Shown here one piece after another: positions 1,175 through 36,452 of a DNA stretch of 64,000 nt. Position 1 is the stretch's first letter, and every line of letters starts with the position of its first letter. Below the pieces are notes generated by a model. It was given only the letters and a program-made list of their open reading frames with translations, was not told where the DNA came from and made no database searches. Made by a program: the position numbers and the translations under genes. Origin of the DNA: a virus (Duplodnaviria; Caudoviricetes); the IMG/VR virus record IMGVR_UViG_3300033067_000616, positions 150-64,149 of that record; one strand, written 5' to 3'.

Positions 1175-1669
1175 ATGAAAATCAAACGAAGATATAAAAA
1201 AGATAAGGCCTATGAACGTAGACCTTTAACTTACGACTTTTTGGCCGAATGGGCGATCGTTCGTAAGTGGGCTAAGATTAACTATGATCTTAGTACTGCA
1301 GATTTAGAGATGCTGCTCTTCTTACATAAACAAAAATTATTCACAAGGGCAGACTTTGCAGAATATGCCAACTTTATGTCATGGGATAGAGATCGTTTTG
1401 AGAGACTTCTCAGAGAGGATTGGATTTATATATGGCGTAAACGTGGGTTTGGAGAAGCCAATATGTATGAGGTATCATTTAAGTGTAAGAAAATGATTAC
1501 GTCAATTTATAAGAAGTTAGTCGGATTAGAACCGATTCCAGTATCACCAAGACGCAATAAGGTCTTCAGACAGAACGCTCCATTCCATCAGAAGACCCTT
1601 GCTCACGCGATTAATAACTTTAACGACAGATTTAAAGAACGCAAACAACGTCCTTCTCCTGAATTATAG
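1175..1669 (+). CDS. Putative winged-helix DNA-binding protein/regulator, antisense to the late operon
   Basis: LSTADLEMLLFL...FTRADF...FERLLREDWI..wing pattern resembles a MarR-like wHTH. Confidence 0.45.
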   Translation: MKIKRRYKKDKAYERRPLTYDFLAEWAIVRKWAKINYDLSTADLEMLLFLHKQKLFTRADFAEYANFMSWDRDRFERLLREDWIYIWRKRGFGEANMYEVSFKCKKMITSIYKKLVGLEPIPVSPRRNKVFRQNAPFHQKTLAHAINNFNDRFKERKQRPSPEL

Positions 1670-1889
1670 TCATCCTTTCATTATCAAGGATGATGTCATG
1701 ACTTTGCACCTTGTCGTATAGGACTGTATCTCCATGTGCTATGCCTATAATATTATCGCCTACTTTGTAGACGATAGCCTTATGGTAACGCATGTCGTTT
1801 GAATCAGCACCGGTTAATAATAAACCGGTGCTAGTCTGCTTTTGCTCTCTTACTCGTTGAACGAGCAAGTATTTACTTAATACTCTCAT
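1632..1889 (-). CDS. groES: Co-chaperonin GroES (Cpn10)
   Basis: LLVQRV...TSTGLLL mobile loop, VYKVG, GDTVLY, I+.EKDV; directly downstream of GroEL. Confidence 0.85.
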   Translation of the reverse strand: MRVLSKYLLVQRVREQKQTSTGLLLTGADSNDMRYHKAIVYKVGDNIIGIAHGDTVLYDKVQSHDIILDNERMTIIQEKDVVCVL

Positions 1890-3441
1890 CTGCTCTGATA
1901 TTTGTAATAATTGCGTTTGTGCTCATTATTGTCGTCGCTACCGACACAGCGTTCAATAAGGCGTTCTTAGTGACCTTAGCCGGGTCAATGATACCAAGCT
2001 TAATCATGTCACCATACTGCTCTCCCTTGACGTCATAACCCTCATTAGGGAACGGCAGGATGCCGTCCATAATAAACTGAGCGTCCTTGCCAGCGTTGTC
2101 AAGTATCTGACGCATTGGAGACGTTAACGCTTTGTGCATGATCTGAGCCGATGCAGAGCTGAGGCCGGTTAAGTGGTTCTTGGCATACTCAAACAAAGCA
2201 ACACCGCCGCCAGGGAGAATACCCTCCTCTAGTGCTGCCTCAACTGCACACACAGCGTCGTCAATGCGGTCACGCTTCTCCTTCTGCTCAATGTCACTCA
2301 ACGCACCTACATAGATCACAGCAACACCACCAGACAAGTTGGCTACTCGCTCCTTGCGGTTGTCCATCTCCTCCTTAGTTATGCCATCGAATATGGTGTC
2401 GTTGATGTCGGCAATGCGATTATCAATAGCAGTTTGTGAACTGCTATAGGGCATAAAAATAGTACTATCCTTACCAACGATAACCTTAGCGCAACGACCA
2501 AGGTGAGCAACATCAATGAGCGACAAGTCGTCACCAGTGTCCTCACTGAAGTATGTACCGTCCAATGCGATTGCCAGATCTTCAAGCAAGTCCTTCTGAC
2601 GATACCCAAAGCTTGGAGGTAAAATGTTACACGCTTTTATTTTGCCCTGAGCAACGTTAATGTTCAATGTGTTTAATGCTGCTGGTGTCATCTCACCAAT
2701 GATGAGCAGAGGCTTATTGTTGGCTACTACATGTTGTAAGATACGCTCAATATTAAGCAAGTTATTGATTTCTTGGTCAGTGATTAAGACATATGGGTTC
2801 TCTAGAACACACTCTTGACGCTTGTAGTCAGTGATAAAGTGACGGCTAGTCCAACCTCTGTCAGCCTTAATACCCTTAATCACCTCGACATACGTGTTGT
2901 GGTCCTTACTGTTCTCAACAGACACCATCTTTACCTCACTAAACGCGTCAGCGATCATACCACCGATAGTGGTGTCATTGTTGGCACTGATTGAAGCCAC
3001 GTCTTTAAGCTTCTTGCCTGAAAGTTTCTTGGCTCGTTTCGACAGGTGGTTCACGACATCTGTCGTGATACTATTAATCTCACGGATTACCTCAGTTACG
3101 TTGTCAGCTTCAGACAGTATGTCTGTAGCTGCATCAACAATAGCCTCGGCAATGACAATTGACGTAGTGGTTCCATCACCAGCAACAGTGGCAGTCTTCT
3201 CAGCAGCCTGTCGCATCATCATAACAGCCAAATTTTCAACCGGATCATACAGATTGATCGACTTAGCGACCGTCACGCCGTCCTTTGTGACTGTAATACC
3301 ACCGACGTGATGTTCTGATTCAATCAACACAGTTCGGCCTCGCGCACCTAATGTGCTTTTTACAGCTCCAGCGATCGTTTTGATGCCTTTAATGAGCTTT
3401 TTGCGACCTTCGTCGCCTAAATGTACATGTTTTACTACCAT
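1873..3441 (-). CDS. groEL: Chaperonin GroEL (Cpn60)
   Basis: STLGARGR, VTKDGVTVAK, AGDGTTT, RVANLSGGVAV, EEGILPGGG, GIIDPAKVT motifs; no GGM tail. Confidence 0.97.
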   Translation of the reverse strand: MVVKHVHLGDEGRKKLIKGIKTIAGAVKSTLGARGRTVLIESEHHVGGITVTKDGVTVAKSINLYDPVENLAVMMMRQAAEKTATVAGDGTTTSIVIAEAIVDAATDILSEADNVTEVIREINSITTDVVNHLSKRAKKLSGKKLKDVASISANNDTTIGGMIADAFSEVKMVSVENSKDHNTYVEVIKGIKADRGWTSRHFITDYKRQECVLENPYVLITDQEINNLLNIERILQHVVANNKPLLIIGEMTPAALNTLNINVAQGKIKACNILPPSFGYRQKDLLEDLAIALDGTYFSEDTGDDLSLIDVAHLGRCAKVIVGKDSTIFMPYSSSQTAIDNRIADINDTIFDGITKEEMDNRKERVANLSGGVAVIYVGALSDIEQKEKRDRIDDAVCAVEAALEEGILPGGGVALFEYAKNHLTGLSSASAQIMHKALTSPMRQILDNAGKDAQFIMDGILPFPNEGYDVKGEQYGDMIKLGIIDPAKVTKNALLNAVSVATTIMSTNAIITNIRADESIK

Positions 3442-3466: not shown

Positions 3467-3685
3467 CTACTTTTTTGGCAATCTAGAGAATGTTATGTTG
3501 CTTTTTACTCTTATATCTTTATGAGTAAACTGCCACATCTCCCCGCTTTCACTTAAAATGATAGTATAAATAGTATCAGTCTCATGACCATAGTCAGTAA
3601 CTAGCCAAATTGCACCGTCACCTCTTGGAGTGGTGACATCAATCCTGTTCGATGGTTCGAATATAGTAGGACTCATCCCTATCAA
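3467..3685 (-). CDS. Hypothetical protein
   Basis: 72-aa ORF, in operon between the transferase and GroEL. Confidence 0.55.
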   Translation of the reverse strand: MIGMSPTIFEPSNRIDVTTPRGDGAIWLVTDYGHETDTIYTIILSESGEMWQFTHKDIRVKSNITFSRLPKK

Positions 3686-4298
3686 TTAATTTATTATACA
3701 ATTCAGTGTCTCTAGACCATTCATGCCCAGTCCAAAACTCAAATCCATGGTAGTTTGCCTTATATCTGCAGCAATTTTCATAACCAGCCATTAAGTACAC
3801 ATAATTACAACCAAGCTCCTTGGCATATAAGCACTCAAACATCTGAGCAACTGTACCTAATGATAGTTTTGTATCACTATAGTCTGTTATAAACTGATAT
3901 GCCACAAACTCGCCTCCAAATATACGGTAAATACTAACCCCAATCAAGCGATCTGTATAATATTCAATGACATTGCAGTCACTATAGTCATAAATATCTC
4001 TTTTAAAGCCGTTATACTCGCAGTATTTTTCATACATCTCAGAGTAATCACCAAAAGTAGAATGCTTAACTGTTACCTTATTAGACAGTCTTTTGGTTGT
4101 TTTAGACGGCCTGTAGTCTTTTAGATCTATACGAGTGCTCCTCTCATTATACCACCTTCCTTTCCATGGTACCCATCCATTAGATAATGCAGATGACTCA
4201 GACTCATTAGGCTCTAATATACCGTATGCGCAATTAACAATCAGCTCGTAGTCACTGACCTTACCGAATCCATTTAAGTGATCGAAGTATATCTTCAT
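3639..4298 (-). CDS. ATE1/Bpt-like aminoacyl-tRNA--protein transferase
   Basis: GW...WY..RSTRI.L..Y.PSKT.KR (ATE N-part) and YY.D.LIGV...SLGT...E...AKELG.NYVYL..GY....YK (ATE C GNAT part). Confidence 0.7.
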   Translation of the reverse strand: MKIYFDHLNGFGKVSDYELIVNCAYGILEPNESESSALSNGWVPWKGRWYNERSTRIDLKDYRPSKTTKRLSNKVTVKHSTFGDYSEMYEKYCEYNGFKRDIYDYSDCNVIEYYTDRLIGVSIYRIFGGEFVAYQFITDYSDTKLSLGTVAQMFECLYAKELGCNYVYLMAGYENCCRYKANYHGFEFWTGHEWSRDTELYNKLIDRDESYYIRTIEQD

Positions 4299-4324
4299 AA
4301 AAAAAGCCCTCTCTTGGAGGGCTT
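4299..4324 (-). terminator. Rho-independent terminator
   Basis: aagccctc/gagggctt stem followed by a U-run on the - strand. Confidence 0.7.
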
Positions 4325-4327
4325 ATG

Positions 4328-5014
4328 TTAGTATTTTCTACCGAATCCTTTTAAAGTCTTGACTTGCTGCTTGATTGTATTTCGATTTGCAGCATTGTCT
4401 TGTGCAGCTCTATAACCTGTAGCCATCCCTGGCACATCAAGAGGATTATTTGACGCAGTGAACTTGGCAGCACTTCTGGCTTGACGAATGTCAGCAGTTG
4501 TGGCCTTAATGCCGGCAATGTTGCCCTCCTTAATGTACTGACGACGCTGACCTTTCATCTCATTTTTGTACTGATCAATGGCAGACTTCGGCTTTGCAAT
4601 GAAGCTCTCACCTAAATTGGTCTTAGATGCATAAGATGCAAACTGCTTTAACTGCTTGTTGGATACGCCACTGGTGTGTGGAACGATGTCACCAAACCAA
4701 CCCTCAGTCGTCTTTTTGGTTTCTTTTGGCTGTCTAAGCTTACCACTTGGAGCATTAAATGAAGCCTTCTTGGTTGCCATCTTAGCCATTGGTTCACTTG
4801 ACTCAAACATAGTAGGACGCTCTGGTTCTTTCGGAGCAGCCTCAAAGTTGTATGGGTTAATTGACCCACCACTTATATTATTGGCCTTATTCCAACGAGC
4901 AGTGTATTCAGCCTTGTCTTTGTCATAGGCAGACTTTGCTGTCAAGTAGTTACCATATGCCTTTTCTTTGGCGGCAAATTCAGACTTACTGATTCTTTTC
5001 TTAGGCGTTTGCAT
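4328..5014 (-). CDS. Hypothetical basic low-complexity protein
   Basis: 228-aa K/A-rich ORF. Confidence 0.6.
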   Translation of the reverse strand: MQTPKKRISKSEFAAKEKAYGNYLTAKSAYDKDKAEYTARWNKANNISGGSINPYNFEAAPKEPERPTMFESSEPMAKMATKKASFNAPSGKLRQPKETKKTTEGWFGDIVPHTSGVSNKQLKQFASYASKTNLGESFIAKPKSAIDQYKNEMKGQRRQYIKEGNIAGIKATTADIRQARSAAKFTASNNPLDVPGMATGYRAAQDNAANRNTIKQQVKTLKGFGRKY

Positions 5015-21391: not shown

Positions 21392-21557
21392 GGTCAGGTG
21401 GCGGAATGGTGTTGATGTGACACGGCAGTGTACGAAGCCCAAGGTAGACGCTAATAGACGAAAAATAGGTTTCATGCTGTGAGGTCGACTTAATCAGCAT
21501 GCCTAGAAGTAGAAAAGAGGGATAAGCTCCATGCCCGTTCGAATCGGGCCCTGACCG
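21392..21557 (+). ncRNA. tRNA-like RNA with an expanded D-loop and a replaced anticodon/variable arm
   Basis: Acceptor ggtcagg/cctgacc; TGGCGGAATGGT..AGACGC D-arm of type II tRNAs; T-arm gcccg-TTCGAAT-cgggc; 35-nt D-loop insert; about 80 nt in place of the anticodon arm. Confidence 0.7.
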
Positions 21558-25760: not shown

Positions 25761-26868
25761 GGCTGATATAGCCAGACAAATAATCTCAGAGAACAACCTT
25801 ACAACCAACCCAGAGACGATGCGTATCTACGTGTCTCGCGCTGTATCTAAACACAACGATAAGGGTGTTAAAGACGCATGCGACGACGTTCAGGTTGCAC
25901 CATCAAATGTACCATATCTTTGGCTTAAGACCAAGCAGGCATCTCTTTTCATAAAGAACCCGGCCTACCGAGTTGATGAGGTGGACTATGAGTCAATCAT
26001 CTCAAAGTGTATTGAAGGCAAGGCGCCAGTTCCTAAGGGCGATTGGAAGCCCGGCAAGACGATCGATCGCTTGGTATGGACTGACGTCCACGTTGGTATG
26101 GATGCCAGCCGTAAGGGATTGGCGTTGTATGCTGCTGAATGGAATGAGTCTGAGCTCATCAAACGAGTTAAAGAGATGGCAGAGTTCGTATTGGCTAATA
26201 AGTCGTCAGATAGCCTTGTTATAGACGATCTAGGAGACTTTATGGATGGTTGGGATGGTGAGACAACTCGCAAGGGTCATAAGCTCCCACAGAACATGAC
26301 AAACGAAGAGGCATTTGAATCTGGCCTCAAGGCTAAGGTGATGCTGATTGATTACCTAGCGCCACAATATAAGCACATCATGTGTAACAACATCTGTGAG
26401 GACAACCACTCAGGTGCCTTTGGTTACATTGTTAACTCAGCATTTAAGCATGTCATTGATCGCAAGTACAGCAACGTGCATGTCGTCAACCACAAGCGCT
26501 TTATAAACCACTACATAATTGGAAAACATGGGTTTATCATCAGCCATGGCAAAGACTCTCGCAACCTTAAGTTCGGCTTCAAGGTCCAACTTGATCCGAG
26601 AAGTGTTGAGAAAATATCTCAGTACATTAGACACGCCCAAGACATAAGGTCATGCGACTACGTTGAGTTCAGTAAGGGTGACTCACACCAGATGCTGTTT
26701 GACTACAGCTCGTCTGATGAGTTTGACTACTTTAACTTCCCAGCATTCTCGCCAAGTTCAGAGTGGGTTCAGACCAACTTTAAGAAAGGCCGATCAGGAT
26801 TTGTATTCTTCCAGATCGACCTTGATTCCAATCGTAAGGTTGTTATGCCTTACTTCTTTAATATCTGA
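25708..26868 (+). CDS. Calcineurin-like metallophosphoesterase with an N-terminal HTH
   Basis: WTDVHVG, LGDFMDG, DNH, SHG, GDSH motifs. Confidence 0.8.
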   Translation: MKQYMDRILELLNSGMTKADIARQIISENNLTTNPETMRIYVSRAVSKHNDKGVKDACDDVQVAPSNVPYLWLKTKQASLFIKNPAYRVDEVDYESIISKCIEGKAPVPKGDWKPGKTIDRLVWTDVHVGMDASRKGLALYAAEWNESELIKRVKEMAEFVLANKSSDSLVIDDLGDFMDGWDGETTRKGHKLPQNMTNEEAFESGLKAKVMLIDYLAPQYKHIMCNNICEDNHSGAFGYIVNSAFKHVIDRKYSNVHVVNHKRFINHYIIGKHGFIISHGKDSRNLKFGFKVQLDPRSVEKISQYIRHAQDIRSCDYVEFSKGDSHQMLFDYSSSDEFDYFNFPAFSPSSEWVQTNFKKGRSGFVFFQIDLDSNRKVVMPYFFNI

Positions 26869-29800
26869 TCGGCTGTTTCGCCATCTTCAATTCTTTTTAA
26901 GTCTAGATAGTTGTAATCTCCTGTCTTCATAAAATACTTAGCATATTCTTTTTCTTCACTTTCTGTGAGCTTAGCCCATTTTTCGGCAAATTTAATAGCC
27001 TCAACAATTGTAGGCACCTTCTTGGTGGTATTCATCACCAAGCTTTCCTCCCATTCTTTTGGCTTACGGCCAAGCTCAGTCTTCAGCTCACTAGTGTTCT
27101 TAAATTTAGTCTCGCTAATTGATCTCTTCTTTACTGTAGCTACAACTTTTCTTGATACCACACCGGCATCCTTTGGCACAAGCCCTGTTGAGTATAGTAC
27201 CATTGGTAACAATGTCCATTTGACAAGTTCTTGGTCTTTCTTACTGATGTACTTTTTCTTTGGGCCAAATCCCATGTCATCATCAAACTCACCTGTGTAG
27301 GCTAGTTGTGCCATTTCCGCAAGCTCGGTGTATGTGTCAAATGCAATACCGGGTACACCATACTGACGGCCTAAGCTTTCTTTTTGGAATGTAACCTTAT
27401 ATGTATTCTTGTCTTTAAGATTCTTGATGAGATTAGCTTCCTGCTCAGCATTCATTGGTTCATCACCTTTAAGTACTCTTGCATCGTTTTGATCTTGAAT
27501 AGCTTTATCGATATCTTCTTTTGATATCATTGGAAAATTACTCATTAACTCATCAAAACCAAATACCACAGCGTCATCAAATAATGGGAATGGAGATATA
27601 ACGTCAGACACTAAACTTTTCACAGGGAACTTAGTCGCGTTCCATTGTTTATTAGTCATTTTAAATAAACCAAAGAATGAGCGATCTTTTTTCTCTTCCT
27701 CATCGTCTTCGCCGGTAATCATAGAAGCAATGTTGTCGTATATCATTGTCTTGATAAAGTATGCAATACCCTGGTATGCCAACATTTCAGAAGCTAATCC
27801 AGCTAATGATCTCCATGCTTTCTTTTTATCCTCAAGGCTAGTACCTGCCTTTATTCCAAAAATTGCAATCAAGTCATTATGCATACGATTCTTCTGGTTG
27901 ATGATGAACGTAGCAAATGGGAGTATGACTTTTCTAGTTACGCTTTTCCATGGATCAGGTGAGTTCATGAATGAACCAGCCAACTTCTCATCTGAAATGT
28001 TTTGCTGACGGTCGACCATCATCTGTGCATAGTTCATCGCATCTTGATTCCACTCATGTGTTTCCCAGTCGATGTCAGTTGACATGCCGTTTGTCTTCAA
28101 GTAATTCTTGTAGTAAGAAATAAATGACGAGCGAGCAACCCATACATCTGGCTTAGATAATAAAGCCTTCATGTACATCTGACTAACCTTCTCAATAGCC
28201 TTAGCTATCTCAGCAGCTTTTGCACCTTTCTTGTCTATCAATGCATCAACAGACTCAACACCTGCTATGGCCTCAATACCACGGTTAGCAATTGGCATAC
28301 CTGATCGGTTGATAGCTGCATTCATTTCAAGATTAAGACCATCAAAGCGCCCGGCATTAATCAATGTGTTGATGATAACCGGAGCCGTCTGCTTGATTGT
28401 TTGGTCTAATCCACCTAACGCTTTACCAACACCAAGGCTTCCTAAGAAGTTAGCTAAACGCTCAACTGACTTCATTGTGTCACGATTGAAGGCATTCTTT
28501 CCTTTAACAGCAATGATATAGTTATTGATACGACGAGTAAGAATTTTTCTGTCGTCACCGTTGACAATTTTCTTGTATCCATCTGACTTAATAAACCCAT
28601 CGACCTGACGAATAGCAGGAGCTGTTTCAATATCAATCATGGCCCCCTTGAGACTAGAGAAATTGTTGACGTCAAAATCAAGGCTAACAAATCTTCCTTG
28701 TGGTAAGGTTTTTGGTCTAGTTGTCTCGATCAATACACCTGACTTATTTTTATCAGTGTACTCAAGGCCACCCATAAACGCGCTACCTTTCTGTAGTAAG
28801 TTTTCATCTAGCTCAATATCAGACTCGTCAAGTCCTTTGTATCTATCCGGAGTATAGTTGGTATCACTTCCAAGTATTGCGTTGTATACAGACAAACTAA
28901 TGTCAGATAGGTCGCTGTACTTCTCAGCCCATTGCTGTGTCATCCAGTTAACAGCATCAATGTTCATCTGCTCAGCATTGGCTTTGATGACGTCAAGATC
29001 CTGGCTATCAACTTTCAGCTTGTCATATACTTTCTGATAAGCTTCACCCATTTTTCTTTCTGTCTCTGATCCAGTCATTAAGGCATTGATAGATTCCTCA
29101 ACCATCTTGATGCGACGTAAGAATTCGTTACGCATTTCTGTTTTGGTTCCGGCCAAATTTCTACTTAAGAAGGCAATCATACCTCTCTCGTATACATTCT
29201 CAGCCTTCATAAAGCCTTTACCATTATAGAACTCCTGACTAGTATAGTCTTTTACGATCATCTTATGCTCTCTGTCAGCTTTAGATGTGCCTCTGATTAC
29301 ATCAGTAAGACCCATCTCTGACATAAAGTTAAGACCCTTCTTCATTCCTGGGAACATTCTCTCAATGAGCAATGGTAATGAAACGAACTGCTCACCAAAG
29401 AAACGGCCAACAGCTTTATTCCAATACATTTTAATCGGTCTTGACTTAAGGCCAGATGCAGCTAGTTTGTTAGCGTTCTCATTTCCAATGTATCCTTTCA
29501 CCACAGCTTCTAAACCACTAGTGATTCCGTTGTTGATGAAGTTATCCATCGCCTCGAGAACTTGAGCGGCTTGCTTAACTGACAGCTTATCGATGTCGAA
29601 CTTAAGAACCTCACTCATTAGTTGTTTTTCGTTCTGAGTTATGTAAAGAGGCTCATCTGTAAACACATCTCTGTTATTCACAATCATCTCTTCTATTATA
29701 CCAGACATAAAATCAAAACGATTTTTCAAAAAGTTGAGCTTCTTGTCAGCATCTTCAACCTCATACTCTTCAGCTGCAATGATGTCGATCATCTCTTGTA

Positions 29801-32800
29801 TCTCCTTGGCAGTCATGTCGTCAGTAATGATGCCAGCTTCAACTAAGTACTTATTCAACGCAAGTAATTCAGCTTTTTTATTTGCCTCTTGACGTTCAAT
29901 CTGAGCTGTCGCATATTCGTTAATCTCGTATATATCAGTAGCTTGTCGAAGCGGCACCTCTGTCTCTCTGACAGGTCTGACGGCATTCAACATTTTCTCA
30001 GCTGTCTCAATGTACTGATCAATATCCTCAACCATAAACGGATCAACACCAGAAAATCTCTTAGCTACACCAGCCACCTCAGCCTGCAAGTCTTTTGACT
30101 TCATGGCTTTTTTGATTGACTTTCTGATCTTGGCTGCCTTGCTCAATGTCTCTTGGTAGTCAGCTCTGTCAAACACTCTCTCGGCATAGCTGATCAATCG
30201 ATCAACCATCACAGGGTTGTCAAGGTTAACTCTGCTTACCTTATTGATAATGCTTCTGGCTTGAACGGCTGTAATCTTGCCCTGTCTTACCATACTAGTG
30301 ATCGCAGCTGCAAGTGCTTTTCTTTTTGCATTAAGATCACCTTTAGCTTCACGAGCGGCCTTAGCTTCAAGTCTAATTTGTGACTTGAGTGCTGTCATCT
30401 CTTCCACCTGTATTTTAGTTGGCTTAATAGCCATTACTTTTTTGATAGAAGGAGCGGCTTTCATTTTCTCACCGAAGAACTTCTTGAGCTCTCTTTCGGC
30501 TTCTTCTCTCATTAAGTCATCAGCCTCATTATACCATTCTGACTTTCTCAAGTCTTCGAGTGCTGAAGTGACACCCTGTTCTGGTGTGTTACCTCTTTCC
30601 TTTACAGATAGTACATATTTTTCTTTGGCCTTTCTAATGGCCTCCTGCTTGCTGAATCCTTTTTGTTTCTTTACCTCTGGTACTCGCTTTACCTTTTTAA
30701 GGCCAATGCCATAAGGAGCAACTACTTGTTGTTGTTGAGCTCTATCTAGATCATCTCTATATTTATTACGAACCTCTTCAGGCATAATGTCGTATGAGTT
30801 TACAATGATATTAGGAACGCCAATTACTTCACCTAATATATCATTCTCATATGTAGAGTGCTTAGATTTTCCACCTATAGCTGTAGGTTTTAGAACAAGC
30901 ATCACATCGCCCATTTTAAAATCATTGTCTTTAAAGAAACCATCTCTTAGTTCATTTGTTTCTAAGAATGCATCATAAGACTCAAGTAATTTTTTAACTG
31001 CAGTGCCTTTTAGTTTTTGCTCATTGATGGCAATAATAAATTTCTTTCTATCAGCACCAAGGAAAACTTCGTCGTAAGAGTTATACTTCTCTAGTATTTC
31101 TTTAATCGCTTTAGTTGGTTTAGCCTCTAGTATAGATGATTTAAACTTATTAAAGTCTACTTTGGCTTCTATTTTACTTTTAACCAAACTAGATACAGTC
31201 TTATTAAATAACTTTGATTGCTGAGGCGATCCACTAATTATGAATATATAATCGCTATTATTGATATTCTTTTCAAGAGTTGACTTATTTGCGCCTGAAG
31301 CCCATATAACTCCATTCTTTCTGTTCTCAGGATCTAAAGCAAATGATGGCCCAGCATCTAAATAGTGATTGCCATTTAACTCAGAGTCAAAGTAAACACC
31401 ACGCCCAAGTTGATCAGCTACCCAGAACCAAACTGTTTGGTCTTTAGATATAATGTCATCAACAAGCGACTTGAAATCTATAATATCAGATTGCTTAACA
31501 AATGTAAGCTTTTGACCTTCAGATACTTTTACTTGTTTTTTAGGAGCTAAATCAGCCGGTACAATCCTTGTTTGGAATCCATTAGCAAATATCTGATCAC
31601 CAGTAACCAACCGCTTGCTTATGGTATTAATAAAATCAATTGCGTCTTGTCTTGTAGATGCTGCTGTAAATATAGCCGGTAGGCCAATTGCTTTTGCAAT
31701 CTTATTGATTAACGCTTTGAATTTTTGTAACGCACTTGTGCTTAATTGTCCTTTTGCTGCACCCATAATGGCGCCTAATTCTGAAATATACTCCTCTGGT
31801 TGGTTTTCTGCAGAGTACTTTTTAGTCAAATCATCAAGACGCTTAATCGCTTTTTCATCTTTGATAATAGATTTAAGTGACTTTGCCCAACCATTTAGAA
31901 CTTTTGCATCTATTCCTTTATTCAGTATAACATAATGGAATGCCTCATGTAGCAAGGTATGAGAAGTAGCTTCCTCCATGTTAACATGGATAGCCATATC
32001 AGTTCCAATAAATCTTCCGTTCTCTTTGCCTTCAGTTTGCTCACCTACGGCGGCATCATATTCAGCTGTATTATTATGAAGATAGATTTTTGCTTCAGGA
32101 ATAGCTCTCATTATAAGCTTGGCGCTCTTAGCTATTTTTTGTCTAGTCTCTATCTCTTGACTATCAATTATATCATTGATGTTGTCATTAGTTACTAGAT
32201 TTTCTTGATAAGTCATGTCACCTGCACGGCCTTCAGACCAAGTCCACTCAGGCATAAGGCCAATCTTCTGGTCAGCAAATACAGTGTCTTCTACTTTTGC
32301 TGTTCTATTGGTTTCTCCAAAAGGACCATAATTTAACCAAGAGTTCTGGCCTCTAGTCTCACTAGTAATAGCTCCGACTGCAGGTCCTGTAAACAATCTG
32401 ACGTGAGCTTGCCATGCATTCTCCTCGCCTCTTGCTCTAAACCCAGCGCCCTCAAGACCATGCCCAAACGCATCATGAACTGCTCTGAACAAGTCATTTG
32501 CAAGAACTGGTTTCATTTCTCCATCTAGTCCACCTACAGGCCATTTGATGCCTGTGTCAGCTAGTAGTGGGTTTGCATTAATTTGTTCTTGTGTTATTTC
32601 ACCTTCTCCGTATCCATCAGTAGTTGGGAATACACCCATCTCCTTATTCTGTCTTAAATCTCTTAGAGCATTGTATGGGCTTGCTGCATACTCTTCATTG
32701 CTTGGAATATTTAGGTCCATAAACCAAAACTTATATCCGGCATCAACTAATGCTTGATACTGAGAAATTGTTTGATTTATAAGATCTTGGTATGCTTCTT

Positions 32801-35800
32801 TTACTTTTGGATCCTGAGGATTATCAGCCATCTGCTCGTAAGCATCGGCTATTCTTTTAGCTCTTTGCTCGTCTACTTCGACGTACTCTGACTGTCTTTT
32901 AAGCTCGATGCCATTGTCTGCTGCGTATTTTTCTGCGACTGCAACAAGTTGTGGGTCCGGCCCGTTAATGCCTGGAACTGCTGGCGCGCCCTCAAGAGGC
33001 GTAAGTTTCCTGCTCTCAGTCCGTCCTCTTCCGTCTCCGGTGCGTTCGGGTTGTATGTTTCCTGTTTCATTTTGTACAAAGTTAGTTTCTTTTTGGTTGT
33101 CCTGCAATAAGTTGGCATATGTATTTTTAAATATACCATAAGTATTACTCATTTCACCATCTCTTACTACTGCTTCCTTTTGAATAACACCGTCAAAACC
33201 TAATGCTTGAACTGCTTTTGAGAAAGCTTCATTAGCTTCCGGTTTGTTTAATTTAGTTGTAAATAATTCTAAATTATTGCCTGCTTTAGATTCAAAATCA
33301 GATATTAATTCTAGTGCTTTTGATATATTTTCTTTTGGTAGTTTGCCTGATTTTTTTAATTCAGCAGCTACGCTTCTTAAGTTATTAGCAATGTCAGATC
33401 CTCTAACATCTGTGGCTAATTTATAAGGCATTTCAATTGGGTTAGAAGGTTTATCAACCTCTAAGCTTTCAATATTTAACGTTCCATCTTCTGATATGCC
33501 AGCATAATTTTTTGCCACATCTTCATTCTCTGCAACCCATAATGTAGATGAGTTATCTCCACTCATTACATTATTTCCTACACCTCTAAATACAGTTATT
33601 TTTTCTTTAGAAGCAGGTTGTCTCTGTAATGAGTTTAATAAATCAGTATGTGGAGTCTCTCCTTCAAATTCTGTAATACCTGCCTTATTTTCAGCATATG
33701 CAACAGGGTCAGATTCTAATTCCTGTATTCTCTGTTGCTTTTCTTCTTGACTTATTACAGTTGCACCATTTATAAATTCAGTCTGACTTTTAACGTAATC
33801 ATCTATAAGCGCCTGATTCTCTTCTGACTGAACTATTTCTTGGGCTTGGCCACCTTCTTGGGTAACTTCTTGAGATCCTGTTTCGGGTTTTCCTTGCGCC
33901 ATTTCTCCGCCACTTTCGGCTCCTGGCTGTACAGATACTTCACTTGTTGCTTGCTCTTGAACGGCATAACTTAATTGTTTTAATTCATCATTAATAGCAC
34001 TGACGCGCTCAGTCTGAGCAGCGACAAGAGCAGGGTCTTTCCCTGCAATTTCTTTTTGTAATTCGTCTCTCTCGGTGATCAACTTGAACGCCTCAAACTT
34101 ATCAACCTTAGCTGGTATCTTATTGAGCACACCCTCAACTTGGTTGATTTTATCGATCTGTCTTTTGGCCTCTTCTTTTGATATTTCACCTGAGATAATC
34201 TGATCCTTAAGGTGTAACTTAAAAGTATCCTTAAGCTCAGGGTTTTCAATTAAATCAGTGATGTTGTTGATCTGTGCTTTGTTTAGCTCATTAAGACCAA
34301 CCTGAGTTGCCTGTGTAATAGACTGCATACCCGCACCTCCAGCAAAACCAAGGATAAAAGATTGCCCTAATCTGTCAGCAACCTCAGTCCATGTCTTTGG
34401 ATTTTGGAAGTACTCTTTGCCAGCCATTCTATTGAACACATCCTTGTAGACCATGTCAGCTGCCTCTTGAGCAAGCTCTGTTGATCCCTCAACCATACCG
34501 GCTGATGTTACTTGAATGAGTCCATTTGTTATAGCAACGCCAAGATTTTTCTTGATAGCTAAGTCAATTGCTTCAGCACTAGCATCCTCACCTAACTCAT
34601 TTACAGTTCTTTTTAGAATCCAGTTTGTCAAGCCTTTACCTGCAGGAGTCTTTGTAAACCACTTGCTTACACCATACTTCTCAAGCACACCAACAGTGGC
34701 GCCATAGACACCAGACATTAATATCTTTTGGTATTCAGGTACGTCCTTAAATTCAGGCGTACTCATTTGGTCTTTCATATTAACATATGAAGACGCATAT
34801 AAGCCAAGTCCAGGGGATCCTACGGCAGCACCAACTAACGCTGAGCCACCTGAGTTAGCAAGACCAAATACAATCTGCTCAAAAGCATTTCTACCCTCAG
34901 CTGATGTATACACATCACTGACTGATCCGGGAGCTGCTTCAGTAAGTAATCCCTTAAACTCACCATCCTTAAAGTCACCTGTCTCAAGTAAGAATCTCAA
35001 TGAGTTCTCAGCGCCTTGTAGGAATGAGTAAGTTGCGCCTGACAATACGTTACCTTTCTCAGCCTGAATAGCATATTGATTGGCAGCTATATTATCAATA
35101 GATACACTCTTATCTTTTGTTTGAATAACCTGCTCACTGATTTTATTTCTTTCATCAATAAGCATATTCTTCTCAGCTGCTAACTTTGGAGCATACTCTG
35201 TGTTGTATTGCTCTTCAGTAATAGTGCCTTTTTTTCTTGCCTCATTTACAGTGGCATTCCACTCGTTGTAGCTTTTAGCTTTCTCAGAGTAGTCAATAGT
35301 TTGTAGTTGAATCTTAGCAAAATCAGTCTTAATGTTTTCCTTTGCATTCTTATCATAGATAGCAGCAGCCTTATACTTATCGTTCTTAGCGTAGTTATAT
35401 CGACCGGTTGATAGCTCATTGAGCTTAGCCTTCTCTTCTAACATCTTTTGAGATAGCTCAATACGTTGAGTAGGCGTGGCTGTCTGCATCTGTGCTTGCA
35501 ACTTGTCAACCTTTTGCTTTTGCTCAACATAAGCCTTGGAGTTCATTTGAACGTCCAAGAAACCTTTCAATATGTTGGCCTCTTCTTTATCTCTACTACT
35601 TGACCAGTTCTCCAAATTGACTATAGCGTCTTCACCAGTGACTTTGTTCACGATACGAAGCTCATCATAACCACGTCCTGATTCAGCAACTTCAAGATAT
35701 GGGTAGTCTTTAATAATCTGCTGAACTACTGGTACAACATCTCCTTCATTGTCATTAACAAAGTCAGGTGTTACCAATGAAAGCGACTTATCTATTTTGT

Positions 35801-36452
35801 CAGACTGAGCTTTTCTCCTTAAGTACTCTGGATCATTTACATCTAACGCATCAAATGATTTTTTGAATAACTCTTGCTCTGCCTTTTGAGCGGCTGTTTG
35901 CTTTGGCTTTGGAGCGGCTGCTTTAATAACTGCTTGACCAAAATCAGAAGACGCAATTCTTTCTGCGTGGTAATCGTAAATCTTTTTATCTATTTTACCG
36001 GCTGCTAGTAGCTTGTCCCAATATTGAATGGTATTTCTGTCACCTTGTAGTTCTTTTGGAACCTCAGGAATCTTGGGCTCAGGCTTTTCAAAGCTATAGT
36101 TTTCTAAAGAGACAGCGTTTTTCTCAAGTGATTGAAGGCGATTTTGAACGTCACCTTTTGTAATTGGATAGTACTTATACTCACCCTTAAATGACTTAAA
36201 CCACTGCCCATTCTCTTTCTTATAGATGGCGTTATCTTCACCCGGAAAAGAATATGTTCCGTCAGCCTTTCCTTTTGAAGACGAAGATACCGTAGGCTTG
36301 ATAGTTGTTGTGGTCGATGATCTTACCAATGAAGGTTTTGCCGATCCAGATGCCGTAAGATCTTTTTTTTTTACACCCAAAACTTGTTCTGGAGATGGTA
36401 ATCTAGAACCTTTTCCTAATACTTCTTCTGGTGATGGTAATCCGTTTGACAT
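26850..36452 (-). CDS. Giant virion ejection/polyvalent protein (3200 aa)
   Basis: Follows the tail and pilot genes; contains an ART-like segment (VFRG...W...VAKNYA...GFDG), an HDAFGH domain, an HEAFH zincin motif and a long helical C-terminus. Confidence 0.7.
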   Translation of the reverse strand: MSNGLPSPEEVLGKGSRLPSPEQVLGVKKKDLTASGSAKPSLVRSSTTTTIKPTVSSSSKGKADGTYSFPGEDNAIYKKENGQWFKSFKGEYKYYPITKGDVQNRLQSLEKNAVSLENYSFEKPEPKIPEVPKELQGDRNTIQYWDKLLAAGKIDKKIYDYHAERIASSDFGQAVIKAAAPKPKQTAAQKAEQELFKKSFDALDVNDPEYLRRKAQSDKIDKSLSLVTPDFVNDNEGDVVPVVQQIIKDYPYLEVAESGRGYDELRIVNKVTGEDAIVNLENWSSSRDKEEANILKGFLDVQMNSKAYVEQKQKVDKLQAQMQTATPTQRIELSQKMLEEKAKLNELSTGRYNYAKNDKYKAAAIYDKNAKENIKTDFAKIQLQTIDYSEKAKSYNEWNATVNEARKKGTITEEQYNTEYAPKLAAEKNMLIDERNKISEQVIQTKDKSVSIDNIAANQYAIQAEKGNVLSGATYSFLQGAENSLRFLLETGDFKDGEFKGLLTEAAPGSVSDVYTSAEGRNAFEQIVFGLANSGGSALVGAAVGSPGLGLYASSYVNMKDQMSTPEFKDVPEYQKILMSGVYGATVGVLEKYGVSKWFTKTPAGKGLTNWILKRTVNELGEDASAEAIDLAIKKNLGVAITNGLIQVTSAGMVEGSTELAQEAADMVYKDVFNRMAGKEYFQNPKTWTEVADRLGQSFILGFAGGAGMQSITQATQVGLNELNKAQINNITDLIENPELKDTFKLHLKDQIISGEISKEEAKRQIDKINQVEGVLNKIPAKVDKFEAFKLITERDELQKEIAGKDPALVAAQTERVSAINDELKQLSYAVQEQATSEVSVQPGAESGGEMAQGKPETGSQEVTQEGGQAQEIVQSEENQALIDDYVKSQTEFINGATVISQEEKQQRIQELESDPVAYAENKAGITEFEGETPHTDLLNSLQRQPASKEKITVFRGVGNNVMSGDNSSTLWVAENEDVAKNYAGISEDGTLNIESLEVDKPSNPIEMPYKLATDVRGSDIANNLRSVAAELKKSGKLPKENISKALELISDFESKAGNNLELFTTKLNKPEANEAFSKAVQALGFDGVIQKEAVVRDGEMSNTYGIFKNTYANLLQDNQKETNFVQNETGNIQPERTGDGRGRTESRKLTPLEGAPAVPGINGPDPQLVAVAEKYAADNGIELKRQSEYVEVDEQRAKRIADAYEQMADNPQDPKVKEAYQDLINQTISQYQALVDAGYKFWFMDLNIPSNEEYAASPYNALRDLRQNKEMGVFPTTDGYGEGEITQEQINANPLLADTGIKWPVGGLDGEMKPVLANDLFRAVHDAFGHGLEGAGFRARGEENAWQAHVRLFTGPAVGAITSETRGQNSWLNYGPFGETNRTAKVEDTVFADQKIGLMPEWTWSEGRAGDMTYQENLVTNDNINDIIDSQEIETRQKIAKSAKLIMRAIPEAKIYLHNNTAEYDAAVGEQTEGKENGRFIGTDMAIHVNMEEATSHTLLHEAFHYVILNKGIDAKVLNGWAKSLKSIIKDEKAIKRLDDLTKKYSAENQPEEYISELGAIMGAAKGQLSTSALQKFKALINKIAKAIGLPAIFTAASTRQDAIDFINTISKRLVTGDQIFANGFQTRIVPADLAPKKQVKVSEGQKLTFVKQSDIIDFKSLVDDIISKDQTVWFWVADQLGRGVYFDSELNGNHYLDAGPSFALDPENRKNGVIWASGANKSTLEKNINNSDYIFIISGSPQQSKLFNKTVSSLVKSKIEAKVDFNKFKSSILEAKPTKAIKEILEKYNSYDEVFLGADRKKFIIAINEQKLKGTAVKKLLESYDAFLETNELRDGFFKDNDFKMGDVMLVLKPTAIGGKSKHSTYENDILGEVIGVPNIIVNSYDIMPEEVRNKYRDDLDRAQQQQVVAPYGIGLKKVKRVPEVKKQKGFSKQEAIRKAKEKYVLSVKERGNTPEQGVTSALEDLRKSEWYNEADDLMREEAERELKKFFGEKMKAAPSIKKVMAIKPTKIQVEEMTALKSQIRLEAKAAREAKGDLNAKRKALAAAITSMVRQGKITAVQARSIINKVSRVNLDNPVMVDRLISYAERVFDRADYQETLSKAAKIRKSIKKAMKSKDLQAEVAGVAKRFSGVDPFMVEDIDQYIETAEKMLNAVRPVRETEVPLRQATDIYEINEYATAQIERQEANKKAELLALNKYLVEAGIITDDMTAKEIQEMIDIIAAEEYEVEDADKKLNFLKNRFDFMSGIIEEMIVNNRDVFTDEPLYITQNEKQLMSEVLKFDIDKLSVKQAAQVLEAMDNFINNGITSGLEAVVKGYIGNENANKLAASGLKSRPIKMYWNKAVGRFFGEQFVSLPLLIERMFPGMKKGLNFMSEMGLTDVIRGTSKADREHKMIVKDYTSQEFYNGKGFMKAENVYERGMIAFLSRNLAGTKTEMRNEFLRRIKMVEESINALMTGSETERKMGEAYQKVYDKLKVDSQDLDVIKANAEQMNIDAVNWMTQQWAEKYSDLSDISLSVYNAILGSDTNYTPDRYKGLDESDIELDENLLQKGSAFMGGLEYTDKNKSGVLIETTRPKTLPQGRFVSLDFDVNNFSSLKGAMIDIETAPAIRQVDGFIKSDGYKKIVNGDDRKILTRRINNYIIAVKGKNAFNRDTMKSVERLANFLGSLGVGKALGGLDQTIKQTAPVIINTLINAGRFDGLNLEMNAAINRSGMPIANRGIEAIAGVESVDALIDKKGAKAAEIAKAIEKVSQMYMKALLSKPDVWVARSSFISYYKNYLKTNGMSTDIDWETHEWNQDAMNYAQMMVDRQQNISDEKLAGSFMNSPDPWKSVTRKVILPFATFIINQKNRMHNDLIAIFGIKAGTSLEDKKKAWRSLAGLASEMLAYQGIAYFIKTMIYDNIASMITGEDDEEEKKDRSFFGLFKMTNKQWNATKFPVKSLVSDVISPFPLFDDAVVFGFDELMSNFPMISKEDIDKAIQDQNDARVLKGDEPMNAEQEANLIKNLKDKNTYKVTFQKESLGRQYGVPGIAFDTYTELAEMAQLAYTGEFDDDMGFGPKKKYISKKDQELVKWTLLPMVLYSTGLVPKDAGVVSRKVVATVKKRSISETKFKNTSELKTELGRKPKEWEESLVMNTTKKVPTIVEAIKFAEKWAKLTESEEKEYAKYFMKTGDYNYLDLKRIEDGETADQILKK

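What the first reader, a model, noticed from the sequence alone, without database searches (positions are those of the whole stretch)
3639..4298. Phage-encoded ATE1/Bpt-like aminoacyl-tRNA-protein transferase beside GroEL: a viral N-degron/proteostasis module
The sequence carries both halves of the ATE/Bpt family. Established knowledge: these enzymes move Leu or Arg from aminoacyl-tRNA onto N-terminal Asp/Glu, creating ClpS/N-degron substrates. It is co-oriented and clustered with GroEL/GroES. Inference: the phage can tag host proteins (for example defence proteins) or its own scaffold for degradation, or can drain specific charged tRNAs. This is unusual for a phage.
Basis: partly seen in the sequence, partly recalled or inferred. 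Interest (0 to 1): 0.75.

Follow-up and report, generated by a model that had tools for sequence, protein, structure and literature searches.

The report
Phage ATE1/Bpt-like aminoacyl-tRNA transferase gene
A 64-kb phage of (probably) Bacteroidota carries a stripped-down, virus-specific relative of the enzymes that move an amino acid from a charged tRNA onto protein ends; it is real and probably active, but it is an optional gene tied to a tiny 65-70-residue phage protein, not to the GroEL/GroES genes beside it.

Summary
The ORF at 3639-4298 (minus strand, 219 aa) is a real ATE1/Bpt-superfamily gene. It passes Pfam's ATE_C threshold. A family profile matches bacterial Bpt (hhalign 98%) and solved ATE1 structures. 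An AlphaFold model (pLDDT 95.5) aligns with ATE1 over 205 residues. The catalytic Lys and Tyr and the ATE1-type Glu of the amino-acid pocket are kept. The "both halves" claim holds only in part: there is no ATE_N hit, no metal-binding Cys cluster and no GFRRSG acceptor motif.

The protein belongs to a virus-specific clade (at least 562 IMG/VR contigs; none found in 50,697 deposited phage genomes). It splits from cellular Bpt-like proteins with 99% support.

The GroEL "module" fails. None of 81 related loci has GroEL/GroES, and a sister phage (82-86% nt identity) has the same GroEL/GroES but lacks exactly the ATE gene. The constant neighbour is an overlapping 69-aa gene (3467-3676), which often occurs without the ATE gene.

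An N-degron role is plausible but unproven. Bacteroidota carry ClpS and Aat, and one related phage clade and one separate contig encode ClpS. This scan noted the family before on other DNA (e1-3287277).

The parts
3639..4298 (-). ATE1/Bpt-like aminoacyl-tRNA transferase homologue, 219 aa (P0001). It is a Cys-less minimal form. Codons: catalytic Lys180 at 3759-3761, Tyr179 at 3762-3764, pocket Glu155 at 3834-3836.
   Evidence: ORF and translation. Pfam ATE_C 29.4 bits, above the gathering score of 25. hhalign to Bpt 98.2%. PDB profile hits to ATE1 only. AF2 pLDDT 95.5. ATE1 aligned over 205 residues, Z 13-14. Residue conservation.
3467..3676 (-). Small conserved phage protein, 69 aa (MSPTIFEPSNR...). 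Its ATG lies 38 nt inside the 3' end of the ATE gene. It is the constant downstream neighbour of this ATE clade.
   Evidence: Present directly downstream in 78 of 81 related loci by tblastn and in 80 of 80 IMG/VR loci by HMM. The start overlaps or abuts the ATE stop. 24 invariant columns. 1880 metagenome clusters, no Pfam domain, clusters 95-100% viral. It also occurs without the ATE gene in 43 of 79 loci.
4299..4324 (-). Terminator-like hairpin (8 bp, 5 G-C) plus a T-run that ends the upstream gene. The ATE start codon follows the T-run at once.
   Evidence: and the sequence. The same hairpin, T-run and ATG are 95% identical in sister phage L117, where the ATG starts the small gene instead.
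3650..4295 (-). Presence/absence segment (~646 nt, the ATE coding body) that is missing from the otherwise collinear sister phage IMGVR_UViG_3300033076_000601.
   Evidence: blastn: window 4333..4295 matches L117 2963..3001 (95%), and window 3649..1501 matches L117 3016..5164 (82%). No ATE-like gene anywhere in that 61,434-b record, which is 100% complete.
1632..3441 (-). GroEL (1873-3441) and GroES (1632-1889). They are adjacent and co-oriented but are not part of the conserved unit; listed as context only.
   Evidence: Pfam and PHROG hits. GroEL is shared with cultured relatives that lack the ATE gene. Absent from all 81 related ATE loci.

Best explanation
Identity. P0001 is an accessory phage gene. 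It encodes a compact, Cys-less member of the ATE1/Bpt aminoacyl-tRNA-protein transferase superfamily and belongs to a clade found almost only in viral sequence.

Proposed mechanism. The enzyme probably binds the 3' end of a charged host tRNA. Using the conserved Tyr179-Lys180 centre, as in ATE1 and FemX, it transfers the aminoacyl group to a free amino group, most likely the N-terminus of a protein. The pocket residue that makes ATE1 specific for Arg (Glu277; Gln in the Leu-specific Bpt) is Glu here and in 44 of 50 family members, so a basic donor (Arg, possibly Lys) is the best guess. The acceptor-recognising part has been remodelled, so acceptor specificity is probably not the classical Asp/Glu.

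Likely consequence. In a Bacteroidota host that has Aat and ClpS, a new N-terminal Arg/Lys would be a secondary destabilising residue. It would be converted by Aat to a Leu/Phe N-degron and the protein delivered by ClpS to ClpAP. The phage would thereby add new proteins to the host's degradation list.

Gene context. The gene is translationally coupled to a 69-aa phage protein that may be a cofactor or a target. The GroEL/GroES adjacency is an accident of where that small gene sits in this lineage.

Shown versus inferred. Shown: family membership, fold, conserved centre, gene linkage, and the insertion/deletion difference from the sister phage. Inferred: activity, donor, acceptor and the degradation outcome.
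For: Homology and fold:
- Pfam ATE_C above threshold; 41 of 50 relatives hit ATE_C.
- The profile hits only ATE1 among PDB sequences, E 7.6e-9.
- hhalign to canonical Bpt: 98.2%, E 4.8e-14, residues 54-198.
- AF2 pLDDT 95.5.
- Foldseek top hits are ATE1, then FemX, MprF and L/F-transferase.
- Only ATE1 aligns over the whole length (205-207 residues, Z 13-14).

Active centre (mapped onto residues tested by mutagenesis in PMC9351520):
- Lys304 corresponds to K180, invariant in 50 of 50.
- Tyr303 corresponds to Y179 (42 Tyr, 6 Trp).
- Glu277 corresponds to E155 (44 of 50 Glu; Bpt has Gln).
- Trp260 is W in 42 of 50.

Real, selected gene:
- At least 562 IMG/VR contigs encode relatives, against 7 contigs, all in MAGs, among 185,579 species genomes.
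- The family is separated from cellular forms with SH-aLRT 99.

Pathway available in the likely host:
- The closest cultured relatives infect Flavobacterium, Cellulophaga and Maribacter.
- The nearest cellular relatives are Bacteroidota.
- ClpS is in 146 of 151 and Aat in 57 of 61 Bacteroidota genomes; an ATE_C protein is in only 12-14 of 151.

Link to ClpS:
- 10 of 18 ATE-carrying viral records encode ClpS, against 0 of 12 related records that carry the small gene but no ATE gene.
- An unrelated phage-like contig has ClpS 3.5 kb from a distant family member.
- ClpS homologues were found in only 3 of 50,697 deposited phage records.
Against: - No activity data exist for any member.
- The window's phage has no ClpS of its own.
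- ClpS-positive relatives share one genome layout, with ClpS 10-13 kb from the ATE gene. They count as about one evolutionary event, so the Fisher p values (0.0016 and 0.015) overstate the support.
- 80 loci of more distant family members showed no ClpS within 10 kb, although the three-seed HMM used was weak.
- The acceptor half is not conserved: no ATE_N hit, no Cys cluster, and GW.P in place of GFRRSG. A protein N-terminus as acceptor therefore rests on homology alone.
- In P0001 three of the four pocket residues are Bpt-like and small or hydrophobic (Ala133, Ala151, Val167), and Trp260 is Thr. The donor call is weak for this particular protein.
- NCBIfam arginyltransferase equivalog models score 20-32 bits against cut-offs of 170 or more.
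- The gene is dispensable: the sister phage lacks it.
Confidence: 0.5

Rival explanations
1. Same enzyme chemistry, different acceptor. The transferase aminoacylates something other than general protein N-termini: the co-translated 69-aa phage protein itself, a cell-envelope precursor (as FemX does) or a lipid (as MprF does). The outcome would be altered function or surface chemistry, not proteolysis.
For: The acceptor-binding N-terminal part is the diverged part. By Z-score the GNAT core matches FemX (15.2) and MprF (13.9) as well as ATE1 (14.2). Five of 50 relatives also hit the FemAB-like Acetyltransf_6 model and one hits LPG_synthase_C. The enzyme of this clade is essentially never found without the small gene downstream, while the small gene is often alone. 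That asymmetry is expected if the small protein is the target or a required cofactor.
Against: Sequence profiles pick only ATE1/Bpt, not Fem or MprF. Only ATE1 aligns over the full length, N-terminal region included. There is no membrane segment or MprF flippase domain. No fusion of the small protein to the enzyme was found among longer forms. More distant family members lack the small gene (1 of 80 loci).
Confidence: 0.2
2. The protein acts on the tRNA pool rather than on an acceptor. It would bind, sequester or discharge particular aminoacyl-tRNAs, to tune translation or to counter tRNA-directed host defences, with the small protein as its regulator (a toxin-antitoxin-like pair).
For: The fold binds aminoacyl-tRNA 3' ends. 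The two genes are tightly overlapping, enzyme plus small partner.
Against: The Lys that is invariant here in 50 of 50 is the one whose mutation in klAte1 was tested in arginylation assays, and it is needed for transfer, not for binding. There are no PADLOC hits. The small gene commonly stands alone among unrelated small ORFs, which is unlike an antitoxin. No relation to known GNAT toxins was seen in the Pfam scan.
Confidence: 0.1
3. One reading: the transferase and GroEL/GroES form one viral proteostasis module that works together.
For: Same strand, and only 25 nt between the small gene and GroEL. Another first-stage note reports ATE-like genes near chaperone and protease genes in a different phage (e1-5858466; unchecked).
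Against: GroEL/GroES is within 6 kb in 0 of 81 related ATE loci. Sister phage L117 and L152 have the small gene plus GroEL/GroES without the ATE gene. GroEL is present in cultured relatives that lack the ATE gene.
Confidence: 0.05
4. The protein is an inactive or structurally co-opted relic of the fold.
For: Loss of the metal-binding Cys cluster and of GFRRSG. The gene is dispensable in the sister phage.
Against: The catalytic Lys is invariant, and Tyr, Glu and Trp are highly conserved across 50 diverse members at 24-84% identity. The model is very confident. Cellular Bacteroidota homologues are also Cys-less, so loss of the Cys cluster is not peculiar to a decaying gene.
Confidence: 0.05

Closest known systems
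Eukaryotic arginyl-tRNA-protein transferase ATE1 (structures 7WG1/7WFX K. lactis, 7TIF/8E3S yeast, 8TZV human)
   Same: It is the best sequence-profile hit in the PDB and the best Foldseek hit. It is the only structure aligned over the whole protein (205-207 residues). Tyr303 and Lys304 are conserved, as is the acidic pocket residue Glu277; family-wide, Ser255, Ser273 and Trp260 are conserved too (PMC9351520).
   Different: P0001 has 219 aa against ~500. It has no C-terminal domain, no Zn/Fe-S Cys cluster and no GFRRSG with the acidic-N-terminus-binding Arg80. It is viral rather than eukaryotic. Identity is 14-18%.
Bacterial Bpt, aspartate/glutamate leucyltransferase (ATE_N + ATE_C, ~240 aa)
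   Same: Similar size and one-domain-pair layout. hhalign gives 98.2% over residues 54-198, including RI..L..YRPSK..KR matching PVRI..V..F.P.RSQRR and the YLG...YK...P.E..W end.
   Different: Bpt has CxYL, GFRRSG and CxxCxxC, all absent here. Bpt has Gln where this family has Glu. No Pfam ATE_N hit. NCBIfam equivalog cut-offs are missed by far. The tree separates the family from Bpt with 99% support.
Cys-less ATE_C proteins of Bacteroidota (uncharacterised cellular homologues, e.g. L096, L099)
   Same: 218-253 aa. They are also Cys-less, with the same G(W/F)... RI.L..F.PSK architecture. They are the nearest cellular clusters in the ESM Atlas.
   Different: Only ~22% identity (E 1e-5). They score 60-75 bits on ATE_C against 29 here. 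They lie on the other side of the 99%-supported split. Their function is untested as well.
FemX/FemABX, the MprF C-domain and L/F-transferase Aat (other aminoacyl-tRNA-dependent GNAT-fold transferases)
   Same: Shared catalytic GNAT core, Z 13-15 over ~140 residues.
   Different: There is no sequence-profile match to these families for P0001, and the N-terminal third does not align with them.

Membership tests
ATE1/Bpt aminoacyl-tRNA-protein transferases | ATE_C domain (PF04377) above Pfam's gathering score | tested here: met
   29.4 bits against 25, residues 95-188. 30.2 bits in the genome scan. 41 of 50 relatives hit.
ATE1/Bpt aminoacyl-tRNA-protein transferases | ATE_N domain (PF04376) | tested here: not met
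   No hit at E<=1 in the whole phage genome. 0 of 50 relatives hit. Only the last ~20 positions align by hhalign.
ATE1/Bpt aminoacyl-tRNA-protein transferases | N-terminal Cys cluster (CxxC...CC in ATE1, C..CxxCxxC in Bpt) that binds Zn or Fe-S | tested here: not met
   The only Cys in residues 1-92 is Cys23, which is not conserved. Bpt Cys16/60/63/66 are invariant in A3.
ATE1/Bpt aminoacyl-tRNA-protein transferases | GFRRSG motif with the Arg (klAte1 Arg80) that reads an acidic N-terminal residue | tested here: not met
   P0001 has GWVPW; the family consensus is GW.P. Arg80's role is from PMC9351520. Whether the invariant Arg53 or Arg56 substitute could not be tested, because no model coordinates were available.
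ATE1/Bpt aminoacyl-tRNA-protein transferases | Catalytic Tyr-Lys pair (klAte1 Tyr303-Lys304) | tested here: met
   Y179-K180. Lys is in 50 of 50; Tyr in 42 and Trp in 6 of 50.
ATE1/Bpt aminoacyl-tRNA-protein transferases | Bilobed ATE1-like fold over the full length | tested here: met
   Residues 1-211 align to human ATE1 and 1-209/210 to klAte1; 205-207 residues aligned, Z 13.0-14.2, rmsd 4.5-4.8. Foldseek E 2e-8.
ATE1 (Arg-specific) versus Bpt (Leu-specific) | Donor pocket: Ser255, Ser273, Glu277, Tyr289 in ATE1; Ala, Ala, Gln, Leu in Bpt | tested here: inconclusive
   P0001 has Ala133, Ala151, Glu155, Val167. The family majority is Ser, Ser, Glu, Leu/Val. The Glu is ATE1-like; the rest are mixed.
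NCBIfam arginyltransferase equivalogs (PRK01305 models) | Score above the curated cut-off | tested here: not met
   19.5-32.3 bits against cut-offs of 170-358.
ATE1/Bpt aminoacyl-tRNA-protein transferases | tRNA-dependent transfer of Arg or Leu to N-terminal Asp/Glu | not testable with these tools
   This needs an in vitro assay.
   0 of 81 related loci. The sister phage has GroEL/GroES without the gene.
FemABX / MprF aminoacyl-tRNA transferases | Family-specific sequence profile and full-length fold match | tested here: inconclusive
   No Pfam hit for P0001. The core-only structural match has Z 13-15. A few relatives hit Acetyltransf_6 or LPG_synthase_C weakly.

The most novel reading that the evidence does not exclude
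This virus-only, Cys-less ATE-like enzyme would be a phage 'N-degron writer'. Together with its 65-70-aa partner, and in some phages their own N-extension-less ClpS, it would put a new N-terminal residue on chosen host proteins (for example defence proteins) so that the host's own Aat-ClpS-ClpAP pathway destroys them. [quoted passage not shown]
Probability: 0.25. Interest if true: 0.85.

Novelty: new variant of a known kind. Interest (0 to 1): 0.55.

Why it matters
Aminoacyl-tRNA-protein transferases are known as cellular enzymes that set protein half-life. I found no paper describing a phage version. The family is absent from 50,697 deposited phage genomes but is present on hundreds of viral metagenome contigs.

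If it is active, it would give phages a way to rewrite protein N-termini with host charged tRNAs. Because the acceptor-recognition part is remodelled, it may follow a new N-terminal rule.

At 219 aa and without a metal cluster, it is also among the smallest ATE1-like proteins. That makes it a convenient model for the catalytic core and a possible tool for N-terminal protein labelling.

The near-isogenic natural pair (this phage and IMGVR_UViG_3300033076_000601, which lacks only this gene at the locus) makes the question testable.

Tried and rejected
- GroEL linkage: tested by co-occurrence and rejected.
- Search for the gene in cultured or deposited phages: none found with P0001, the distant member P0118 or the small protein. 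megablast of the first 12 kb found nothing.
- PHROGs: no family for P0001, the small protein or P0002. PADLOC: none.
- Fusion ("Rosetta stone") search for the small protein: the longer forms are C-terminal extensions or unrelated N-terminal fusions, none to the transferase.
- Fold of the small protein: the AF2 model is poor (pLDDT 59). The best VIA Z is 5.0 (PH/Tudor/CarD-like small barrels), which is within noise. The PDB profile search found nothing meaningful. The Atlas shows only unnamed viral clusters.
- ClpS near distant family members: 0 of 80 loci, but the three-seed HMM was weak, so this is not evidence of absence.
- tRNA-like element at 21392-21557 as a dedicated aminoacyl donor: ARAGORN and Rfam find no tRNA in the window. 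The sister phage shares only a 21-nt piece. The idea is left untested.
- Mapping the acceptor pocket in 3D: not possible, because model coordinates are not exposed to scripts.
- Locus L107 (unpublished genome G192) was fetched but not used.

Full report
**Setting.** The window is almost all of a 64,149-b IMG/VR virus record that CheckV rates as complete. It encodes a portal, a virion structural protein, tail proteins, a primase-helicase and a 3200-aa protein. Its major virion protein is 48-60% identical to those of podophages of Flavobacterium, Cellulophaga and Maribacter. A Bacteroidota host is therefore likely but not shown.

**The observation.** ORF 3639-4298 (minus strand) is open and encodes 219 aa.
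- It passes Pfam's curated threshold for ATE_C (29.4 bits against 25). NCBIfam arginyltransferase equivalogs score far below their cut-offs.
- A 50-member alignment of diverse relatives (A1) matches only ATE1 among all PDB sequences (E 7.6e-9).
- A1 matches six canonical Bpt proteins taken from betaproteobacterial genomes at 98.2% hhalign probability (A3).
- The AlphaFold model is very confident (pLDDT 95.5).
- Foldseek ranks human, yeast and K. lactis ATE1 first. FemX, the MprF C-domain and L/F-transferase follow, and all of these use aminoacyl-tRNA.
- In the VIA re-alignment only ATE1 covers the whole protein (205-207 of 219 residues, Z 13-14). The others cover the ~140-residue GNAT core.

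**"Both halves" is only partly right.** ATE_N gives no hit at E<=1 in the whole genome or in any of the 50 relatives. The hhalign match starts at residue 54. There, RIDLKDYRPSKTTKRL corresponds to the Bpt PVRI..V..F.P.RSQRR stretch at the end of ATE_N. The Bpt and ATE1 hallmarks upstream of that point are missing. The invariant Cys residues are absent, and GFRRSG is replaced by GW.P. Cellular ATE_C proteins of Bacteroidota are also Cys-less and are the nearest cellular relatives, at about 22% identity.

**Catalytic centre.** I used the alignments and the mutagenesis in PMC9351520 to map residues across the 50-member family:
- klAte1 Lys304 corresponds to K180 (50 of 50).
- Tyr303 corresponds to Y179 (42 Tyr, 6 Trp).
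- Glu277 is the residue whose charge is needed for Arg transfer, and it is Gln in Leu-specific Bpt. It corresponds to E155 (44 of 50 Glu).
- Trp260 is Trp in 42 of 50, but Thr in P0001.
- The other pocket residues are mostly Ser, Ser and Leu/Val in the family, and Ala, Ala and Val in P0001.

This pattern argues for an active enzyme and, weakly, for a basic amino-acid donor.

**A virus-specific family.** Only 7 contigs among 185,579 species genomes do, and all are in MAGs. One is a 118-kb phage-like contig.
- 177 clusters at 50% identity match at E<=0.001. None of the ten distant hits checked carries ATE_N.
- A quick ML tree puts all 50 family members on one side of a branch with SH-aLRT 99. 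Bacteroidota cellular proteins and Bpt lie on the other side.
- Atlas neighbours are viral. BFVD holds one uncharacterised partial relative.
- No deposited phage genome has the gene.
- I found no paper on it.
- The scan has noted the family before on other DNA (e1-3287277, e1-5858451, e1-5858466).

**The GroEL module fails.** None of 81 related loci has GroEL, GroES or the upstream gene P0002 within 6 kb. In those phages the gene sits among DnaB, PolA and ribonucleotide reductase genes.

A sister phage (IMGVR_UViG_3300033076_000601, 61,434 b, complete) is collinear at 82-86% nt identity. The terminator hairpin, T-run and ATG at window 4333-4295 match it at 95%. In the sister that ATG opens the small gene (MIYEP...), which is followed by GroEL (92% aa) and GroES. 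The 646-nt ATE body is simply absent, and no ATE-like gene exists elsewhere in that genome. The gene is therefore optional. GroEL adjacency comes from the position of the small gene in this lineage.

**The real constant neighbour.** A 69-aa ORF (3467-3676) has its ATG 38 nt inside the ATE gene.
- Its homologue follows the ATE gene in 78 of 81 loci by tblastn and in 80 of 80 IMG/VR loci by HMM. The start overlaps or abuts the ATE stop. It is still present next to an ATE gene at only 40% identity.
- It is very conserved (24 invariant columns) and abundant (1880 clusters). Its nearest Atlas clusters are 95-100% viral. It has no known domain or fold.
- The link is asymmetric. Of the 79 best small-gene loci, 43 have no ATE gene, and the small gene then sits among varied small ORFs. 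More distant ATE-like genes lack it (1 of 80).
- It may be a cofactor, a target, or only a conserved landing site.

**N-degron plausibility.** In sampled Bacteroidota, ClpS is present in 146 of 151 genomes and Aat in 57 of 61, often side by side. An ATE_C protein is present in only 12-14 of 151. A phage transferase could therefore feed a pathway that the host already has.

Ten of 18 ATE-carrying viral records encode ClpS, against 0 of 12 related records that carry only the small gene. The Fisher p values are 0.0016, and 0.015 for near-complete records. ClpS-like genes were found in only 3 of 50,697 deposited phages.

The ClpS-positive phages share one layout, with ClpS 10-13 kb from the ATE gene, so this is roughly one event. 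One independent case is a UvsW-bearing contig with ClpS 3.5 kb from a distant family member. The window's phage has no ClpS.

**Verdict.** The gene is a real, probably active, virus-specific minimal ATE1/Bpt-like transferase with an unknown and probably non-classical acceptor. It is an accessory gene coupled to a small phage protein. The GroEL module is not supported. N-degron tagging is the leading hypothesis but remains unproven.

Noticed in passing
window 3467-3676 (-); loci L117-L195: The 65-70-aa small protein forms a very abundant family whose nearest Atlas clusters are 95-100% viral (1880 clusters at 90% identity). It has 24 invariant columns and no Pfam, PDB or fold match. It occurs with or without the ATE gene, among varied small ORFs.
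   Followed up: partly
L113:1492-1746 (+), L114, L110:1178-1465 (-); virus records G194, G196, G200-G204, G206, G220: Related 100-125-kb phages encode an 84-85-aa ClpS that starts at the conserved core (..LYNDD..). It appears to lack the N-terminal extension that cellular ClpS uses to hand substrates to ClpA. ClpS-like genes were found in only 3 of 50,697 deposited phage genomes.
   Followed up: partly
window 21392-21557 (+): A tRNA-like sequence (also first-stage note e1-5873150) has a 7-bp acceptor stem and a perfect T-arm, but a split D-arm and no anticodon arm. ARAGORN and Rfam do not call it. The sister phage shares only 21 nt of it. It could in principle be a non-decoding aminoacyl donor for the transferase, but this is untested.
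   Followed up: partly
window 4328-5014 (-): The upstream gene P0002 (228 aa, Lys/Ala-rich, no Pfam, PHROG or PADLOC hit) is a variable slot. The sister phage has a different 351-aa ORF there with only a 34% partial match.
   Followed up: partly
Bacteroidota genomes G004, G041, G045, G109: In several Bacteroidota genomes aat lies a few hundred bases from clpS. In G109 the cellular Cys-less ATE_C gene lies 3 kb from clpS. This hints that the uncharacterised cellular Cys-less ATE_C proteins also belong to the N-degron pathway.
   Followed up: no
window 26850-36452 (-): A 3200-aa ORF lies in the virion gene block. It was not examined here.
   Followed up: no
window 4287-4298 and 3653-3676 (-): The ATE gene begins MKIY (ATGAAGATATAC) and the small gene has ..TIFEP (ACTATATTCGAACC). 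The sister phage's small gene begins MIYEP (ATGATATACGAGCC). The ATATAC/ATATTC microhomology at both ends of the 646-nt segment may mark how the gene was gained or lost.
   Followed up: no
virus record G207 (L071), contig positions 107-790: The ATE-like match in this record contains one in-frame TGA, at the very start of the contig. It could be a sequencing or assembly error, a pseudogene or recoding.
   Followed up: no
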